A DNA stretch of 64,000 nucleotides. It comes from an uncultured Candidatus Saccharibacteria bacterium. Its GTDB lineage: Bacteria; Patescibacteriota; Minisyncoccia; Phycocordibacterales; UBA918. Below, piece after piece: positions 20,652 through 26,007 of the stretch. The stretch covers positions 10,410 to 74,409 of the forward strand of contig CAZUWG010000002.1 of the NCBI GenBank assembly GCA_964624165.1, given 5' to 3'. The position numbers and the translations under genes were made by a program. The notes under the pieces were generated by a model. It saw nothing but the letters and a program-made list of their open reading frames with translations, ran no database searches and was not told the origin of the DNA. Within the stretch, counting starts at the first letter, position 1. The number at the start of each line of letters is the position of its first letter.

Positions 20652-21530
20652 ATGAAAACACATACACCAAAACACGTCGCGTTGCAGCTGGCGTCTCTTA
20701 TTACACTCTATGTTTCCCTCACCGCATTTTTAGTGGTGGCCTTTGGAGTCATAGACTTGACCTTCAAGGATGTGATTGATAGCTGGGAGTATACCAGCAC
20801 CCAAGGAAGTGTCCGCTTTTCAATTGCACTGTTGGTGGTATTTTTTCCTGCCTATCTCTTTTTGACACGAAAGACCAATCAGGTGAAACGAAGTGAGGAC
20901 TCCACCTACGCTACGCTCACAAAATGGCTCGTCTACCTTTCCTTAGTGGTAGGGGGATTGGTTTTCTTGGGTAACTTAGTGGCGGTTTTGTATGCCTTTC
21001 TTGAAGGAGAGATTACGACTCGTTTTATTCTCAAGTCTGGCTCTTTGGCACTAATGATCGGTTTTGCTGGCTTTTATTATATTAAGGATGCGCAAGAGTA
21101 TTGGCAAACACACGAGCGACAATCTCTATTTGCCGGCGCAGTGGCGAGTATTCTGGTCGCTGTAGTGCTTGTATTTGGCTTTGTCTCTCTTGATACTCCT
21201 GCCGAAGTGCGAGAGCAGCGTATAGATGATATTCAGGTGAATGATTTACAAAATATACAATACAGCATTGAAGAGTATTATCGCCTCAATGAAGTGCTGC
21301 CATCTGATTTGAAGGCAGTTGGTGAGTACCAACCACCAGAAGGACGAGCTGCATATACGTATCACGTAGTAGATGCTACGAGCTATGAATTGTGCGCCAC
21401 CTTTACTACCGATAATACGGCACAACGAGGCATGAGCACTCGGCCAGTACCAGTATTTGATATGTATTCTTGGGAACACGGGGTGGGTGAGGAGTGCTTT
21501 ACTCGGCGGATCGAGAGATTGAAAATGTAA
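20652..21530 (+). CDS. hypothetical membrane protein with Cys-containing C-terminal extracytoplasmic domain
   Basis: 292 aa with about 6 TM segments, followed by a soluble C-terminal region (QNIQYSIEEYYRLNEVLPSDL...YELCATF...GEECF). Confidence 0.45.
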   Translation: MKTHTPKHVALQLASLITLYVSLTAFLVVAFGVIDLTFKDVIDSWEYTSTQGSVRFSIALLVVFFPAYLFLTRKTNQVKRSEDSTYATLTKWLVYLSLVVGGLVFLGNLVAVLYAFLEGEITTRFILKSGSLALMIGFAGFYYIKDAQEYWQTHERQSLFAGAVASILVAVVLVFGFVSLDTPAEVREQRIDDIQVNDLQNIQYSIEEYYRLNEVLPSDLKAVGEYQPPEGRAAYTYHVVDATSYELCATFTTDNTAQRGMSTRPVPVFDMYSWEHGVGEECFTRRIERLKM

Positions 21531-21532
21531 TT

Positions 21533-21901
21533 ATGAATGAAAAAAGTTTGCGTACACCTTCTACCGACACAGCGTATCAACATATAAAAGCTAAGCGAAT
21601 CAACGAAGGGTACAACGGATGTCCTTTATGCGAAGAGGTAACTCTTCAAGAGTTTGAGCACTGGCGCTTGGTGGCAAATGAATATCCTTACGATCGAATT
21701 GCTGAGATACACCATATGCTCATTCCCAAAGCTCATGTTGATCAAGTTGGTGTTTCTTCGCTTGCCTGGCAAGAGTACGCAGCACTGAAGGAAACATTTA
21801 TCAGCGAAAATTACGGGTACATTTTAGAAACAACACATAAAAATAAATCCGTACCAAGACATTTTCATGTGCATTTGATTGTGGTGAAGGAGGAGGTGTA
21901 G
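21533..21901 (+). CDS. HIT-family (histidine triad) nucleotide hydrolase
   Basis: Histidine triad HFHVHLI (HxHxHxx) near the C-terminus and a CPLC pair at the N-terminus. Start reassigned to ATG 21533, just after the upstream stop at 21530. Confidence 0.75.
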   Translation: MNEKSLRTPSTDTAYQHIKAKRINEGYNGCPLCEEVTLQEFEHWRLVANEYPYDRIAEIHHMLIPKAHVDQVGVSSLAWQEYAALKETFISENYGYILETTHKNKSVPRHFHVHLIVVKEEV

Positions 21902-21974: not shown

Positions 21975-24830
21975 ATGCACAAAAAATTTGATCACAAAGC
22001 GCTTGAGCAAAAATGGCAAAATGACTGGTCGGAATCAAAGGTGTACCGCACTGATTCTGCTTCAAAAAAGCCGAAAGTCTTTGTACTTGATATGTTCCCT
22101 TATCCCTCTGGAGAAGGGCTGCATGTCGGTCATCCGAAAGGGTTTATCGCGACTGATATTTATTCGCGAATGAAGCGAATGAATGGATTTGAAGTGCTTC
22201 ACCCAATGGGGTGGGACGCGTTTGGCTTGCCGGCTGAAAACTATGCCCTCAAGAATAAAGTGCATCCAAGAGTGGCGGTTGATAAAAATATCGCCAACTT
22301 CAAATCTCAGCTTTCAAAACTCGGTCTCGATTATGATTGGTCACGAGAAATTAATACGACGGATCCCCATTTTTATAAGTGGACACAATGGATTTTTATT
22401 CAGTTGTTTAAAAAAGGTTTAGCCTATGAGAGTCATGAGCCGATCAACTGGTGTCCAGGGTGTCAGACCGGCCTCGCCAATGAAGACCTCGAGAGCGATG
22501 GCACCTGCGAACGGTGCGGCAGTGTGGTTGAAAAACGACCAATGCGGCAGTGGGTTTTGAAGATTCGTGAGTATGCGGATCGGATGCTTGAAGATCTTGA
22601 TACGCTTGAGTGGCCAGAACATATTAAAGAAGCCCAACGCAACTGGATTGGACGCTCAGAAGGCGCTGAAATCGATTTTGCACTCTCGTCAGGAGATATT
22701 GTCACTGTCTTTACCACTAGACCAGACACGCTGTTTGGCGCTACCTATATGGTATTAGCGCCAGAGCACGAGCTAGTACAAAAAAATAAAGACACCGTCA
22801 GCAATTGGGAAGAAGTGTCCGCCTACATTACAAAAGCTGCCAACAAAAAAGAGATGGATCGTCTTGATGACACCAGGGAAAAAACCGGCGTAAAGCTTGA
22901 AGGCATTACTGCCACCAATCCAGCCAGCGGAGAAGAAATACCCGTCTATATAGCTGACTACGTACTAGCTAGCTACGGAACTGGGGCAATCATGGCCGTC
23001 CCCGCGCATGATGAACGCGACTATGCATTTGCAAATAAGTTTGGAATTGAAATACGTCCAGTAATACGAAAAGTATTTGGAGAACCACTTTCCAATCCAG
23101 TACCGCGTACAGCTGTAGGTGCAATCGTACACGACACTAAGACAGATAAGTATTTAATACAGTACTCGCACGAGTTTGAAAAGCATTCCTTTATTTTTGG
23201 TGGTTTAGAAGCAGGTGAAACCTATGCTGAAGCAGCTGTGCGGGAAACTTTAGAAGAGACTGGTTATCATACCCAATTTGTGCGTTATATCACCGAAGAA
23301 ACTGAATCGCATTTCTACCACCCGGGCAAAAAAATTAACAGAGCGCTTGTGAGTCGTCGAGTATTGCTTGAGTTAACTAATGATGTACCAGAGTCAGTGT
23401 CTCAAGAAGAGCTCGCAAAGCAAAAGCCAGTCTGGTTAACGGTCGATGAACTACGCACAAAATTAGTCGACATTTTAGAAGAGAAATACGCCATCGAGCA
23501 ATTGTTTAACCCTCATCCATACACCAGCGACGGCACTCTGTGCCATTCTGGTGAGTTCGATGGCCTGGATTCCGAACAAGCCAAGCAGGCTATTGTTGAA
23601 AAAGTTGGCGGACGGATTACTAAGACGTACAAAATTAAAGATTGGGTCTTTTCACGTCAGCGCTATTGGGGTGAACCTTTCCCGATAGTACACGCAGAAG
23701 ATGGGAAGGCGTATCCGGTCGCGTTTGAGCAGCTCCCCGTGGAGTTACCAGAAGTGGAGCACTATGAGCCAGCGGGAGATGGGCAGTCGCCTTTAGCGAC
23801 CATCCCGGACTGGGTAAATGTCACTGGCTACCTCAATGAAGCAGGTGATTTTGTGGTAGCAAATGAAGCACCTGCTGGCAAAACTCTCATGAAGGGTAAG
23901 CGAGAGACCAACACCATGCCACAATGGGCAGGCAGTAGCTGGTATTACCTGCGTTATATCGATCCTCAAAACGAAGACGTGTTGGTTGACTCAGTAAAAG
24001 AAAAAGACTGGCAACCGGTTGATGTGTATGTTGGTGGTGATCACGCAGTGCGTCACCTTATTTACGCGCGTTTTTGGCACAAGTTTCTCTACGATATTAA
24101 TGTCGTCTCGACACTTGAGCCGTTCCAGCGACTTGAATTCCTTGGATTTATTTTGGCCGAAGATGGTCGAAAAATGAGCAAACGGTGGGGGAATGTAATC
24201 AACCCTGACGATATTGTGGCTTTGGTAGGAGCCGATACGCTTCGTATCTACGAGATGTTTATGGGACCATTTGAAAATACGATTGCTTGGAGCCAAAATG
24301 GTGTAGTAGGAGCGCGGCGCTTTTTGGAGCGCGTCAATGGACTTTCAGAGCACATAAAAGATGAAGAAACGAAAAGCATCACGGCGTTACTTCATAAAAC
24401 TATCAAGAAAATACGAGATGATATTGAAGGCTTTAAATTTAATACCGCCGTGAGCGCTATGATGGTGTACCTAAACGAGGCGGAAAAAGCTGGCATCACA
24501 AAAGAAAATTATCTATCATTCCTCAAACTTTTGGCCCCGTTTGCGCCCCACCTTACCGAAGAGCTCTGGCGTCAGGCTGGTGAGAAAAATAGTATTCACA
24601 CAGCCTCTTTCCCGGTGTACGAAGAAACACTTGCTAAAGATGAAACTGTTACTATTGGGGTACAGGTCAATGGAAAAGTGCGAGGCGATATTGTAATTGC
24701 GCCTGATGCGACAGAAGAAGAAGCACTTAAAGAAGCCCGAGCGCACGAGAATGTGGAAAAGTGGCTTAAAGGAGCTGCGTTGAAAAAGGTTATTTACCGA
24801 CCAGGAAAGATTTTAAATGTGATTGTATAA
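21975..24830 (+). CDS. leuS: leucyl-tRNA synthetase carrying an inserted Nudix hydrolase domain
   Basis: HIGH (HVGHPKG), the CP1 editing domain (TTRPDTLFGATYMVLAPEH...GTGAIMAVPAHDERDYAFA) and KMSKS (KMSKRWGN). Between the end of the editing domain and the conserved SGEFDGL...DWVFSRQRYWGEPFP block lies a ~135-aa insertion with a textbook Nudix box GGLEAGETYAEAAVRETLEETGY (Gx5Ex7REUxEExGU). Start set to ATG 21975 (MHKKFDHKALEQKWQNDW), because the track start at 21921 lies inside the upstream terminator hairpin. Confidence 0.9.
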   Translation: MHKKFDHKALEQKWQNDWSESKVYRTDSASKKPKVFVLDMFPYPSGEGLHVGHPKGFIATDIYSRMKRMNGFEVLHPMGWDAFGLPAENYALKNKVHPRVAVDKNIANFKSQLSKLGLDYDWSREINTTDPHFYKWTQWIFIQLFKKGLAYESHEPINWCPGCQTGLANEDLESDGTCERCGSVVEKRPMRQWVLKIREYADRMLEDLDTLEWPEHIKEAQRNWIGRSEGAEIDFALSSGDIVTVFTTRPDTLFGATYMVLAPEHELVQKNKDTVSNWEEVSAYITKAANKKEMDRLDDTREKTGVKLEGITATNPASGEEIPVYIADYVLASYGTGAIMAVPAHDERDYAFANKFGIEIRPVIRKVFGEPLSNPVPRTAVGAIVHDTKTDKYLIQYSHEFEKHSFIFGGLEAGETYAEAAVRETLEETGYHTQFVRYITEETESHFYHPGKKINRALVSRRVLLELTNDVPESVSQEELAKQKPVWLTVDELRTKLVDILEEKYAIEQLFNPHPYTSDGTLCHSGEFDGLDSEQAKQAIVEKVGGRITKTYKIKDWVFSRQRYWGEPFPIVHAEDGKAYPVAFEQLPVELPEVEHYEPAGDGQSPLATIPDWVNVTGYLNEAGDFVVANEAPAGKTLMKGKRETNTMPQWAGSSWYYLRYIDPQNEDVLVDSVKEKDWQPVDVYVGGDHAVRHLIYARFWHKFLYDINVVSTLEPFQRLEFLGFILAEDGRKMSKRWGNVINPDDIVALVGADTLRIYEMFMGPFENTIAWSQNGVVGARRFLERVNGLSEHIKDEETKSITALLHKTIKKIRDDIEGFKFNTAVSAMMVYLNEAEKAGITKENYLSFLKLLAPFAPHLTEELWRQAGEKNSIHTASFPVYEETLAKDETVTIGVQVNGKVRGDIVIAPDATEEEALKEARAHENVEKWLKGAALKKVIYRPGKILNVIV

Positions 24831-24981: not shown

Positions 24982-26007
24982 ATGATCACTTTTAAACCTA
25001 AGCAAGTCACAAAAAAGTTGCTCTCAGTCCTGCCGGAGCGAGCAAGAGATGTGCTCGAAAAACGGTACGGCCTTGGCGCAGATAATGCCAAGCATACCCT
25101 CGAAAGCATCGGTCAGACGTACGGCATTACGCGAGAGCGAGTGCGTCAGATTGAAAATTACGCAATTGCCGCCATTCAAAAGTCGGAAGTCTTTTCAGAG
25201 TTCCAGGCAATTTTTGATGAACTAAATGAATCACTCGAAGAGCTCGGTGGCGGTCTTTTGGCTGAACACACACTCCTTGAAGAGATTACGAAAGATGCTA
25301 TTTTGCAGAATCATCTGTTTTTCTTGCTTGTACTTGGAAATCCATTTTCACGTAAAAAAGAAAATCCGTCATATGCCCATCGTTGGTACACCAACAAAGA
25401 TATGGCTGACGTAGTGGAGAAGGCTTTGCGAGCTGTCTACAAAACACTCGACAAAGATGAGCTCGTCACCGAAGAAGAAATTCTCTCACGCTTTAAAAGC
25501 GAGTTGGCCGAAGTGGCTGACACGCGAGATGAATCTGTCTTACGGCGCTGGCTTTTGATCTCAAAAGAGATCGACAAAAATCCGCTCGGTGAATGGGGAC
25601 CTTCCGCCTCTCCAAACGTTCGTGTAAAAGGCGTGCGCGACTACGCCTATCTAGTGGTCAAGCGCCATGGTTCTCCGATGCACTTTAGAGAAGTCGCTTC
25701 ATCTATTGAAGAGCTGTTTGCAAAAAAGGCCCATACAGCAACGACACACAACGAGCTCATTAAGGACGAGCGATTTGTACTGGTCGGACGAGGCCTCTAC
25801 GCTTTGACTGAGTGGGGATACTCTGCCGGAGTGGTAAAGGACGTGTTGCGCGAATTACTCGAAAAACACGGCCCACTGACAAAAGACGAACTCATCGATA
25901 AGGTGCGCAAAGAGCGTTATGTGAAGGACAATACTATCGTTGTAAACCTTCAAGACGCAAATCTCTTTAAAAAACTACCAAACGGAGCGTACACTTTATC
26001 GGTCTAA
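24982..26007 (+). CDS. sigma-70 region-4-like HTH protein with uncharacterised C-terminal domain
   Basis: N-terminal 65 aa (RARDVLEKRYGLGADNAKHTLESIGQTYGITRERVRQIENYAIAAIQ) match sigma-70 region 4 (the -35-binding HTH). No region 2 or 3; about 270 aa of unknown domain follow. Confidence 0.6.
   Translation: MITFKPKQVTKKLLSVLPERARDVLEKRYGLGADNAKHTLESIGQTYGITRERVRQIENYAIAAIQKSEVFSEFQAIFDELNESLEELGGGLLAEHTLLEEITKDAILQNHLFFLLVLGNPFSRKKENPSYAHRWYTNKDMADVVEKALRAVYKTLDKDELVTEEEILSRFKSELAEVADTRDESVLRRWLLISKEIDKNPLGEWGPSASPNVRVKGVRDYAYLVVKRHGSPMHFREVASSIEELFAKKAHTATTHNELIKDERFVLVGRGLYALTEWGYSAGVVKDVLRELLEKHGPLTKDELIDKVRKERYVKDNTIVVNLQDANLFKKLPNGAYTLSV

What the first reader, a model, noticed from the sequence alone, without database searches (positions are those of the whole stretch)
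23100..23500. Nudix hydrolase domain inserted inside leucyl-tRNA synthetase
The LeuRS ORF (21975-24830) has all the class-I hallmarks (HIGH, the CP1 editing domain with the TTRPDT and GTGAIMAVPAHDERDY blocks, KMSKS). Between the end of the editing domain (…KFGIEI) and the conserved SGEFDGL…DWVFSRQRYWGEPFP block it contains a ~135-aa insertion. That insertion has a complete Nudix box, GGLEAGETYAEAAVRETLEETGY, matching Gx5Ex7REUxEExGU exactly, plus the flanking beta-strand pattern and the downstream conserved Trp (KPVWLTVDEL). E. coli and Thermus LeuRS have only ~25 residues at the equivalent position. I do not know of a described aaRS with an embedded Nudix domain. Inference: aaRSs generate aminoacyl-adenylates and Ap4A-type dinucleotides, both classic Nudix substrates, so a covalently tethered pyrophosphohydrolase could clear mis-activated adenylates or Ap4A.
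Basis: partly seen in the sequence, partly recalled or inferred. Interest (0 to 1): 0.85.

Follow-up and report, generated by a model that had tools for sequence, protein, structure and literature searches.

The report
Nudix domain nested inside leucyl-tRNA synthetase
An essential translation enzyme (leucyl-tRNA synthetase) of an ultra-small uncultured bacterium carries a complete, apparently active nucleotide-pyrophosphate-cleaving (Nudix) domain inside its proofreading domain; this undescribed arrangement is widespread, and in related organisms the same Nudix type is a separate gene next to the synthetase gene.

Summary

It is not unique to this genome. Eighty of the 120 nearest LeuRS clusters have an insert of this size at this site, as do LeuRS genes from many Patescibacteria and a few low-GC MAGs labelled Clostridia. 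Nudix-box catalytic residues are invariant across insert subtypes that share only 20-25% identity; about 20% of inserts are degenerate.

First, all 29 metagenome loci holding close relatives of the nearest free-standing Nudix are LeuRS-linked: 26 embedded, 3 as a separate gene just downstream of a bacterial- or archaeal-type LeuRS. Second, the insert behaves as a swappable cassette: LeuRS genes 96-99% identical in flanking DNA carry unrelated inserts or none.

The substrate is unknown. Structural neighbours and a conserved X-loop Tyr weakly favour dinucleoside or other polyphosphates such as Ap4A. No publication describing this was found.

The parts
21975..24830 (+). Leucyl-tRNA synthetase gene (951 aa, bacterial type) with the Nudix insertion
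   Evidence: ORF; TIGR00396 947 bits against cutoff 548; Pfam class I aaRS, editing and anticodon-binding domains; start chosen by agreement with homologue N-termini
22122..22133 (+). HIGH-type signature (HVGH, residues 50-53)
   Evidence: Sequence; H50, G52 and H53 invariant in 98 relatives
22638..23081 (+). CP1 editing domain, part before the insertion (residues 222-369; holds TTRPDT 247-252 and the GTGAIMAVPAHDERD block with D346)
   Evidence: PF13603 best stretch 222-369 = profile 1-145/185; T247, T248, R249, D251, T252, H345 and D346 invariant
23109..23519 (+). Inserted Nudix domain (residues 379-515), nested in CP1
23199..23267 (+). Nudix box GGLEAGETYAEAAVRETLEETGY (residues 409-431; E415, R423, E424, E427, E428)
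   Evidence: Regex and HMM scan of the window; these residues are invariant across 27 inserts of 5-6 subtypes sharing 17-30% identity; helix 417-429 in the model
23313..23342 (+). X-loop signature FYHPGKKINR (residues 447-456), 16-25 residues after the box
   Evidence: The motif [FY]x2-3[HS]Kx2N[RQ] is shared by nearly all insert subtypes and by the free-standing relatives; the role of the X-loop in specificity is taken from PMC5389931
23520..23639 (+). Return to LeuRS: end of CP1 (YTSDGTLCHSGEFDGL...KIKDW, residues 516-555)
   Evidence: Aligns to Thermus LeuRS from residue 377 onward; G520, L522, S525, F528 and G530 nearly invariant
24171..24185 (+). KMSKS-type loop (reads KMSKR, residues 733-737)
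   Evidence: Sequence; K733, M734, S735, K736 and R737 invariant

Best explanation
The insert is a catalytically competent Nudix pyrophosphohydrolase module nested in a surface loop of the LeuRS CP1 editing domain. It belongs to a Nudix subfamily that is functionally dedicated to LeuRS: either fused into it, as here, or encoded by a separate gene immediately downstream of it. LeuRS itself remains a working synthetase with an intact editing site.

Shown: the domain identity and fold, conservation of the metal-binding and catalytic residues, the insertion point, the fused-versus-adjacent distribution, and cassette-like exchange.

Inferred: the module hydrolyses a nucleotide with a polyphosphate chain that is made at, or bound by, LeuRS. 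The most likely candidates are dinucleoside polyphosphates such as Ap4A or Ap3A, formed when an enzyme-bound aminoacyl-adenylate reacts with ATP or ADP. Tethering would then keep the hydrolase at the source and in 1:1 stoichiometry with the synthetase in a very small genome.

For: Catalytic competence: G409, E415, R423, E424, E427 and E428 are invariant, and E479 nearly so, across subtypes with only about 20-25% identity. 114 of 146 recognisable inserts keep E..RE..EE.

Host enzyme intact: HIGH, TTRPDT, D346 and KMSKR are invariant.

Functional coupling: all 29 metagenome loci with a Nudix at least 37% identical to the free-standing P0133 are LeuRS-linked. 26 are embedded and 3 are separate genes 38-122 nt downstream of LeuRS. 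Of those three, two follow an archaeal-type LeuRS (TIGR00395, 895 bits) and one follows a bacterial-type LeuRS with an uninterrupted editing domain. None of the 51 weaker Nudix loci is LeuRS-linked.

Against: Ap4A is diffusible, so tethering is not obviously needed, and to my knowledge LeuRS is not among the strongest Ap4A producers.

The model does not explain several observations: why about 20% of inserts lost the first Glu and the Arg of the box; why Ham1, serine-hydrolase and nucleotidyltransferase-like domains occupy the same or the neighbouring site in relatives; or why the insert is exchanged between near-identical genes.

Confidence: 0.45

Rival explanations
1. tRNA-end repair or conflict module. 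CP1 is the domain that receives the tRNA 3' CCA end. A Nudix on its surface would remove an abnormal pyrophosphate-containing group from the acceptor end of tRNA-Leu, for example a 3'-pyrophosphorylated CCA made by toxic RelA/SpoT-homologue enzymes, or a 5'-triphosphate or NAD-type cap. The insert's variability would reflect an arms race.
For: The insert is nested in the tRNA-end-handling domain. Other enzymatic domains occupy the same or the flanking CP1 site: serine hydrolase, Ham1, nucleotidyltransferase-like, and up to 3 Nudix domains. Cassette-like replacement occurs in genes with 96-99% identical flanks, and core and insert relatedness are uncorrelated (r = 0.13). RNA-acting Nudix enzymes (RppH, decapping effectors AvrM14, Dcp2) are among the structural matches.
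Against: There is no direct evidence. RNA-acting Nudix enzymes are not the top neighbours. A repair activity restricted to tRNA-Leu is hard to rationalise. Free-standing homologues next to archaeal-type LeuRS would have to dock onto a differently built editing domain. No toxin gene was seen next to the gene.
Confidence: 0.2
2. Generic house-cleaning nucleotide pyrophosphatase (MutT/NTP-sanitising type) that merely hitch-hikes in a highly expressed essential gene of a streamlined genome. The LeuRS link would be about co-expression, not about LeuRS chemistry.
For: Ham1 (ITPase-type house-cleaning enzyme) is inserted at the neighbouring CP1 site in some relatives (P0119, P0138). MutT1- and MutT-like proteins are among the sequence and structure matches. 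No other Nudix gene lies in the 64-kb window.
Against: Hitch-hiking does not predict that the same Nudix subfamily also sits as a separate gene directly behind LeuRS of a different evolutionary type (archaeal), nor that all 29 close homologues are LeuRS-linked. Close relatives do without the domain and have no replacement gene within about 4 kb (L084).
Confidence: 0.15
3. Mainly a non-catalytic ligand-binding or structural module that modulates CP1 movement (the aminoacylation-to-editing switch) in response to a nucleotide, as Nudix-like domains do in regulators such as NrtR.
Against: The window's own insert and about 78% of the others keep every catalytic residue, invariant against a 20-25% identity background. 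That is the signature of selection for catalysis.
Confidence: 0.08
4. Artefact: a mis-assembly or chimeric contig that joins a Nudix gene into LeuRS, or an intein- or intron-like element that is removed before the mature protein forms.
For: All data come from metagenome assemblies. Mosaic patterns could in principle arise from chimeric assembly.
Against: The in-frame insert without stops is seen in more than 100 independent assemblies from NCBI, JGI, ENA and Logan, including contigs of 0.2-0.8 Mb. Junctions fall at the insert edges rather than in the longest conserved blocks, and several contigs are MEGAHIT k141 assemblies. There is no intein/Hint Pfam hit, no Cys/Ser/Thr plus His-Asn splice junctions, and no flanking repeats. 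The AF2 model places it as a folded domain continuous with CP1 strands.
Confidence: 0.02

Closest known systems
Free-standing Nudix hydrolases of the polyphosphate-substrate type (T. thermophilus Ndx1 Ap6A hydrolase 1vc8, M. tuberculosis Rv2985 / M. smegmatis MutT1, Aquifex Ap4A hydrolase 3i7u), and the uncharacterised E. faecalis protein 2azw
   Different: Only 19-22% identity. Here the domain is not an independent protein but is nested inside another enzyme's domain. It has its own subfamily signature, [FY]x2-3[HS]Kx2N[RQ]. The substrate has not been determined.
Bacterial leucyl-tRNA synthetase with CP1 editing domain (T. thermophilus 1h3n, E. coli 4aq7/4arc)
   Same: Collinear alignment over the whole length, with HIGH and KMSKS-type motifs and the editing motifs TTRPDT and the universal Asp.
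   Different: 137 extra residues where Thermus has one (between Tth 375 and 377). The leucine-specific domain (Tth 580-637) is absent, and the CxxC knuckle near Tth 485 is replaced by a non-Cys segment.
Aminoacyl-tRNA synthetases carrying an extra catalytic domain, e.g. IleRS with an N-acetyltransferase domain (NCBIfam NF040702)
   Same: A bacterial class Ia synthetase fused to an accessory enzyme. This shows that such architectures are recognised by curators (the model name is listed).
   Different: A different synthetase, a different accessory fold, and an appended rather than nested arrangement (the last point is from my own knowledge, not tested). No curated model exists for a Nudix-containing LeuRS; NCBIfam returns only the generic leuS_bact model.
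Rosetta-stone (fused versus adjacent) gene pairs
   Same: The same two components are found fused in some genomes and as neighbouring co-oriented genes 35-122 nt apart in others.
   Different: The fusion is an internal, doubly nested insertion (Nudix inside CP1 inside the Rossmann fold) rather than end-to-end. The adjacent state also occurs with the non-orthologous archaeal-type LeuRS.

Membership tests
Nudix hydrolase superfamily (Pfam PF00293) | Profile match above the curated threshold | tested here: met
   52.8 bits in the whole protein and 56.7 bits for the insert alone, against a cutoff of 21.1
Nudix hydrolase superfamily (Pfam PF00293) | Nudix box Gx5Ex7REUxEExGU with the metal-binding Glu residues | tested here: met
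   GGLEAGETYAEAAVRETLEETGY at residues 409-431. The U positions are T and Y. E415, R423, E424, E427 and E428 are invariant across subtypes
Nudix hydrolase superfamily (Pfam PF00293) | Alpha/beta/alpha Nudix fold | tested here: met
Nudix hydrolase superfamily (Pfam PF00293) | Divalent-cation-dependent hydrolysis of a nucleoside diphosphate linked to X | not testable with these tools
   Requires an enzyme assay
Dinucleoside polyphosphate (ApnA) hydrolase subgroup of Nudix | Conserved Tyr in the X-loop about 17 residues after the box that stacks on the adenine (Dunn 1999 rule as summarised in PMC5389931) | tested here: inconclusive
   Y448 lies 17 residues after the box. A Tyr at +13 to +21 is present in 99 of 114 canonical inserts. 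The rule is only a correlation, and here a Pro lies two residues further on (P450)
Dinucleoside polyphosphate (ApnA) hydrolase subgroup of Nudix | Closest characterised relatives are ApnA hydrolases | tested here: inconclusive
Bacterial-type leucyl-tRNA synthetase (TIGR00396) | Equivalog model above the cutoff | tested here: met
   947 bits against 548.4
Bacterial-type leucyl-tRNA synthetase (TIGR00396) | Class I signatures and CP1 editing residues (TTRPDT, universal Asp) | tested here: met
   HVGH 50-53, KMSKR 733-737, T247-T252 and D346, all invariant in 98 relatives
Bacterial-type leucyl-tRNA synthetase (TIGR00396) | Leucine-specific domain before the KMSKS loop, as in Thermus and E. coli | tested here: not met
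   Query 728->734 spans Thermus 579->638, so about 58 residues are missing. This feature is not universal in the family, so membership stands
Intein or other self-removing insertion | Hint-domain match, a nucleophile at both junctions, and a terminal His-Asn | tested here: not met
   No Hint/intein Pfam hit. The junctions read ...VPR|TAV... and ...HPY|TSD.... There are no flanking repeats

The most novel reading that the evidence does not exclude
The CP1 editing domain of LeuRS in Patescibacteria and some other lineages is a docking platform for interchangeable accessory enzymes: several Nudix subtypes, Ham1, serine hydrolase, nucleotidyltransferase-like and unknown domains. These are shuffled between lineages by recombination at the insert borders and kept polymorphic by selection. 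That pattern fits a defence or repair role, such as detoxifying a nucleotide-type inhibitor of LeuRS or repairing damaged tRNA-Leu ends, better than a housekeeping role. This would be a previously unrecognised layer of aaRS biology.
Probability: 0.15. Interest if true: 0.9.

Novelty: new variant of a known kind. Interest (0 to 1): 0.72.

Why it matters
Accessory domains on aminoacyl-tRNA synthetases are well known in eukaryotes and are usually non-catalytic. A second, apparently active enzyme nested inside the editing domain of a bacterial synthetase is unusual. Here it is conserved across hundreds of uncultured species and is mirrored by gene adjacency in other lineages, including what looks like an archaeon.

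It gives a concrete, clonable test case for the long-discussed link between synthetases and dinucleoside polyphosphates such as Ap4A. It may equally reveal a new kind of quality control at the tRNA acceptor end.

The cassette-like exchange of the insert in an essential, highly conserved gene is also of interest for understanding recombination and selection in ultra-small symbiotic bacteria. It also matters for annotation, since these proteins are currently named simply 'leucine--tRNA ligase'.

Tried and rejected
1. Substrate assignment by homology. NCBIfam equivalogs (YtkD/RppH, NudC, MutT, NudE, NudB) all score far below their cutoffs. phmmer and profile searches of PDB give only generic or uncharacterised Nudix proteins.

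2. Upstream ORF 21494-21901 as a HIT-family (Hint/Fhit-like) partner, suggested by its HFHVHLIVV motif. There was no Pfam HIT hit even at E<=5 and no PDB match, so I do not use it as evidence.

3. Mobile-element, intein or intron explanations. I found no Hint domain, no splice-junction residues and no flanking direct or inverted repeats beyond 10-17-nt chance matches.

4. A second Nudix gene in the window: none. A compensating free-standing Nudix near the insert-less relative L084: none within about 4 kb. The HMM hit there comes from the LeuRS flanks included in my insert HMM.

5. Vertical inheritance of the insert. The neighbour-joining core tree is star-like with insert types scattered across it, and core-versus-insert identity has r = 0.13.

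6. Assembly chimera as the explanation of the mosaics. I judge this unlikely but could not exclude it formally.

7. AFDB Foldseek search: the library was unavailable.

9. tRNA and Rfam scans of the window found nothing.
Full report
**1. Observation**

The window holds a continuous ORF on the + strand ending at 24830. The ATG at 21975 gives a 951-aa protein whose N-terminus (MHKKFDHK...) matches all close homologues. An identical protein exists in NCBI on an 82.7-kb contig (P0001).

NCBIfam identifies it as bacterial-type LeuRS (TIGR00396, 947 bits against a cutoff of 548). Pfam finds the class I catalytic fold, the LeuRS editing domain PF13603 split into two stretches, the anticodon-binding domain, and NUDIX PF00293 at residues 377-497 (52.8 bits against a cutoff of 21.1). 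Scanned on its own, the insert scores 56.7 bits.

The alignment to T. thermophilus LeuRS (1h3n) is collinear, with one large gap. Query 3-378 aligns to Tth 2-375 and query 516-728 to Tth 377-579. So residues 379-515 (137 aa, nt 23109-23519) are extra.

Small corrections are needed. The U positions of the box are T and Y. The second class I motif reads KMSKR. The stretch GEPLSNPVPR is native linker rather than Nudix. Above all, the insert lies inside CP1, at about position 145 of the 185-position editing-domain profile. A relative without the insert matches positions 1-185 in one piece. The Nudix is therefore doubly nested: inside CP1, which is itself an insertion in the Rossmann fold.

**2. 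Is it a real, folded, active-looking Nudix?**

A full-length AlphaFold2 model built with 98 relatives has mean pLDDT 88.2 and pTM 0.78. Residues 360-520 score 92-97 and show the strand/helix order of a Nudix fold, with the Nudix helix at 417-429. The insert modelled alone has pLDDT 92.7 and pTM 0.86.

In an alignment of 27 inserts from five or six subtypes that are only 17-30% identical to the window's, the invariant columns within the Nudix part are G409, E415, R423, E424, E427 and E428. E479 is nearly invariant. That pattern indicates selection on catalysis. The host enzyme's own motifs (HVGH, TTRPDT, D346, KMSKR) are invariant in 98 relatives.

**3. Distribution**

Of the 120 best-scoring 90%-identity clusters, 80 have a Nudix-sized insert at this site, 38 have only the short loop and 2 have an unrelated insert of about 60-80 aa.

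A scan of one genome per GTDB species returned LeuRS genes with the same architecture from MAGs labelled Paceibacterota, Moraniibacteriota, Falkow-, Magasanik-, Berkel-, Uhr-, Taylor- and Vogelbacteria. It also returned four low-GC MAGs labelled Clostridia (GC 27-34%) whose LeuRS core has Firmicutes-style motifs. The nearest named relatives of the window protein are 'Candidatus Kaiserbacteria' (71-75% identity).

The local gene order DUF5671 - LeuRS - sigma70_r4/HARE-HTH protein - DUF8128 - YceG is shared with relatives.

Among 146 recognisable site-2 Nudix inserts, 114 keep the canonical E..RE..EE. About 30 are degenerate, mostly one coherent subtype with Gln and Ala in place of the first Glu and the Arg.

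Nearly all subtypes, degenerate ones included, share an X-loop signature [FY]x2-3[HS]Kx2N[RQ] 16-19 residues after the box (window: FYHPGKKINR). Together with the reciprocal search results, this defines them as one Nudix subfamily.

**4. The insertion site is a hot spot**

Relatives carry other domains at the same site. These include nucleotidyltransferase-like domains (one above and one below the Pfam cutoff for PF10706, with PF14907 below cutoff in both), three unrecognised domains of about 100-140 aa, and a tandem Nudix.

A second site at the N-terminal edge of CP1, between NWIGRSEGAEIDF and VFTTRPDT, is normally 16-17 aa. In some relatives it holds a serine hydrolase (PF06821), Ham1 (PF01725) or another Nudix. 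Some LeuRS proteins have up to three Nudix domains.

**5. A link to LeuRS that does not depend on fusion**

A phmmer search of the insert against 1.84 billion representative proteins found 277 hits at E<=1e-3. The ten large hits examined among the top fourteen are all LeuRS. Free-standing proteins of about 160 aa appear from E = 7e-17, and the ones examined carry the same X-loop motif.

The best of these, P0133, lies 35 nt downstream of a 965-aa gene in two independent contigs. NCBIfam identifies that gene as archaeal-type LeuRS (TIGR00395, 895 bits against a cutoff of 648). The context includes DHQS-II, which suggests an archaeon.

A metagenome scan with P0133 returned 80 loci. All 29 with at least 37% identity are LeuRS-linked. 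In 26 the Nudix is embedded in a bacterial-type LeuRS. In 3 it is a separate co-oriented gene 38-122 nt downstream of LeuRS: two of archaeal type, and one of bacterial type with an uninterrupted editing domain. None of the 51 weaker, generic Nudix loci has a LeuRS nearby.

This fused-versus-adjacent pattern across two non-orthologous LeuRS types is the strongest evidence that the Nudix works with LeuRS rather than merely riding in it.

**6. Cassette behaviour**

Relatedness of the LeuRS core and of the insert is essentially uncorrelated (Pearson r = 0.13 over 76 proteins). Five of the six pairs with at least 88% core identity have inserts below 27% identity.

- L002 vs L001: flanks 96% and 98% identical, around a block of about 510 nt with no similarity.
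- L083 vs L084: flanks 98.1% and 99.6% identical, including the next gene, around a 480-nt Nudix block in one and an unrelated 151-nt linker in the other.
- L169 is a mosaic: 95% identical to L170 on the left and 98% identical to L168 on the right, with a third cassette type in between.

Junctions are sharp and fall in the short conserved motifs at the insert edges (..GIEI.. and ..INSGEFDG..). In all four genes examined, the window's included, cassette GC is 4-7 points below the rest of the gene (42.3 against 46.2 in the window). There are no flanking repeats.

The simplest reading is homologous recombination between LeuRS alleles, with breakpoints at the cassette borders. Assembly chimeras are unlikely for three reasons: the contigs come from different assemblers, including MEGAHIT k141; the insert-less allele lies on a 224-kb contig; and the breakpoints do not sit in the longest conserved blocks. 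They cannot be formally excluded without reads.

**7. Mechanism**

Established so far: an intact LeuRS carries on its editing domain a Nudix module with all catalytic residues, from a LeuRS-dedicated subfamily.

The X-loop carries a conserved Tyr plus basic residues. An X-loop Tyr is the feature that correlates with ApnA hydrolases according to Srouji et al. 2017 (PMC5389931). Synthetases make Ap4A from enzyme-bound aminoacyl-adenylate and ATP (established knowledge), so in-cis clearance of dinucleoside polyphosphates is the best-supported single hypothesis. I put it at about 0.45.

The main model leaves three things unexplained: the degenerate subtype, the co-occurring Ham1, hydrolase and nucleotidyltransferase inserts, and the cassette exchange. 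Those fit better with a repair or defence role at the tRNA acceptor end, or against nucleotide-type inhibitors (rival, about 0.2). I also keep a generic house-cleaning role (about 0.15) and a regulatory, non-catalytic role (about 0.08) as rivals.

**8. Comparison with what is known, and novelty**

The domain meets the sequence and fold criteria for the Nudix superfamily; enzyme activity could not be tested here. The host meets the criteria for bacterial LeuRS, although it lacks the Thermus/E. coli leucine-specific domain. Membership of the ApnA-hydrolase subgroup is inconclusive.

Five full-text searches found no paper describing a Nudix domain in LeuRS or any other aaRS. The large Nudix-clan review (PMC5389931) does not mention tRNA synthetases. 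The architecture is visible in precomputed Pfam annotations of public proteins that are named only 'leucine--tRNA ligase', so it is undescribed rather than unseen.

I rate it a new variant of a known kind: an accessory-domain aaRS and a Nudix fusion. It has two further unexpected properties, the fused-or-adjacent LeuRS dedication and the cassette exchange.

Noticed in passing
window 24153-24188 (residues about 728-738), compared with Thermus LeuRS 579-638: This LeuRS lacks the roughly 58-residue leucine-specific domain that precedes the KMSKS loop in Thermus and E. coli LeuRS. The alignment jumps from Tth 579 to 638 across only 5 query residues.
   Followed up: partly
window 23817-23900 (residues about 615-642): Where Thermus and many close relatives have a Cys knuckle (TTCPxCGG...), the window protein and a subset of relatives have a longer Cys-free segment (VTGYLNEAGDFVVANEAPAGKTLMKGK). 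This is a second polymorphic segment within the same gene.
   Followed up: no
window 21494-21901 (+), immediately upstream of leuS: A small ORF (122-135 aa) carries a histidine-triad-like motif, HFHVHLIVV, and an HHMLIPKAH segment. However, Pfam gives no HIT hit even at E<=5 and PDB gives no match, so its family is unresolved. The upstream gene differs between close relatives.
   Followed up: partly
L061, L065, L070, L072, L073, L075, L078, L079; P0035, P0119, P0130-P0138 (site between NWIGRSEGAEIDF and VFTTRPDT; window nt about 22650-22710): A second insertion site lies at the N-terminal edge of CP1. It is 16-17 aa in the window protein but holds 180-220-aa serine-hydrolase (PF06821), Ham1 (PF01725) or Nudix domains in relatives. 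Some LeuRS proteins reach 1150-1560 aa with up to three Nudix domains.
   Followed up: partly
L064, L025 (site 2); L022, L028, L058, L054 (site 2): Non-Nudix domains occupy the same site. L064 and L025 carry a nucleotidyltransferase-like domain (PF10706, 27 bits and above its cutoff in L064, 19.4 bits and below it in L025; PF14907 below cutoff in both). Three kinds of 100-140-aa domain have no Pfam match.
   Followed up: partly
L035, L044, L051, L071 (GC 27-34%), L033: MAGs labelled Clostridia or Fimivivens have a LeuRS with a Nudix at the same CP1 site; in the four low-GC ones the LeuRS core has Firmicutes-style motifs. Their Nudix subtype (FYAAHKxVNR) is shared with some Patescibacteria. This suggests either transfer of the cassette or the gene across phyla, or mislabelled bins.
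   Followed up: partly
L002 1-577 vs L001 1-3174: In the pair whose LeuRS flanks are 96-98% identical, the region upstream of leuS also shows no similarity (a 147-aa gene against three small ORFs). Variability is therefore not confined to the cassette.
   Followed up: no
window 24982-26007 (+): The gene downstream of leuS encodes a protein combining sigma-70 region 4 with a HARE-HTH domain. It is conserved in this position in relatives, followed by DUF8128 and YceG.
   Followed up: no
window 1-64000: No tRNA genes and no Rfam family at gathering threshold were found in the whole 64-kb window.
   Followed up: yes
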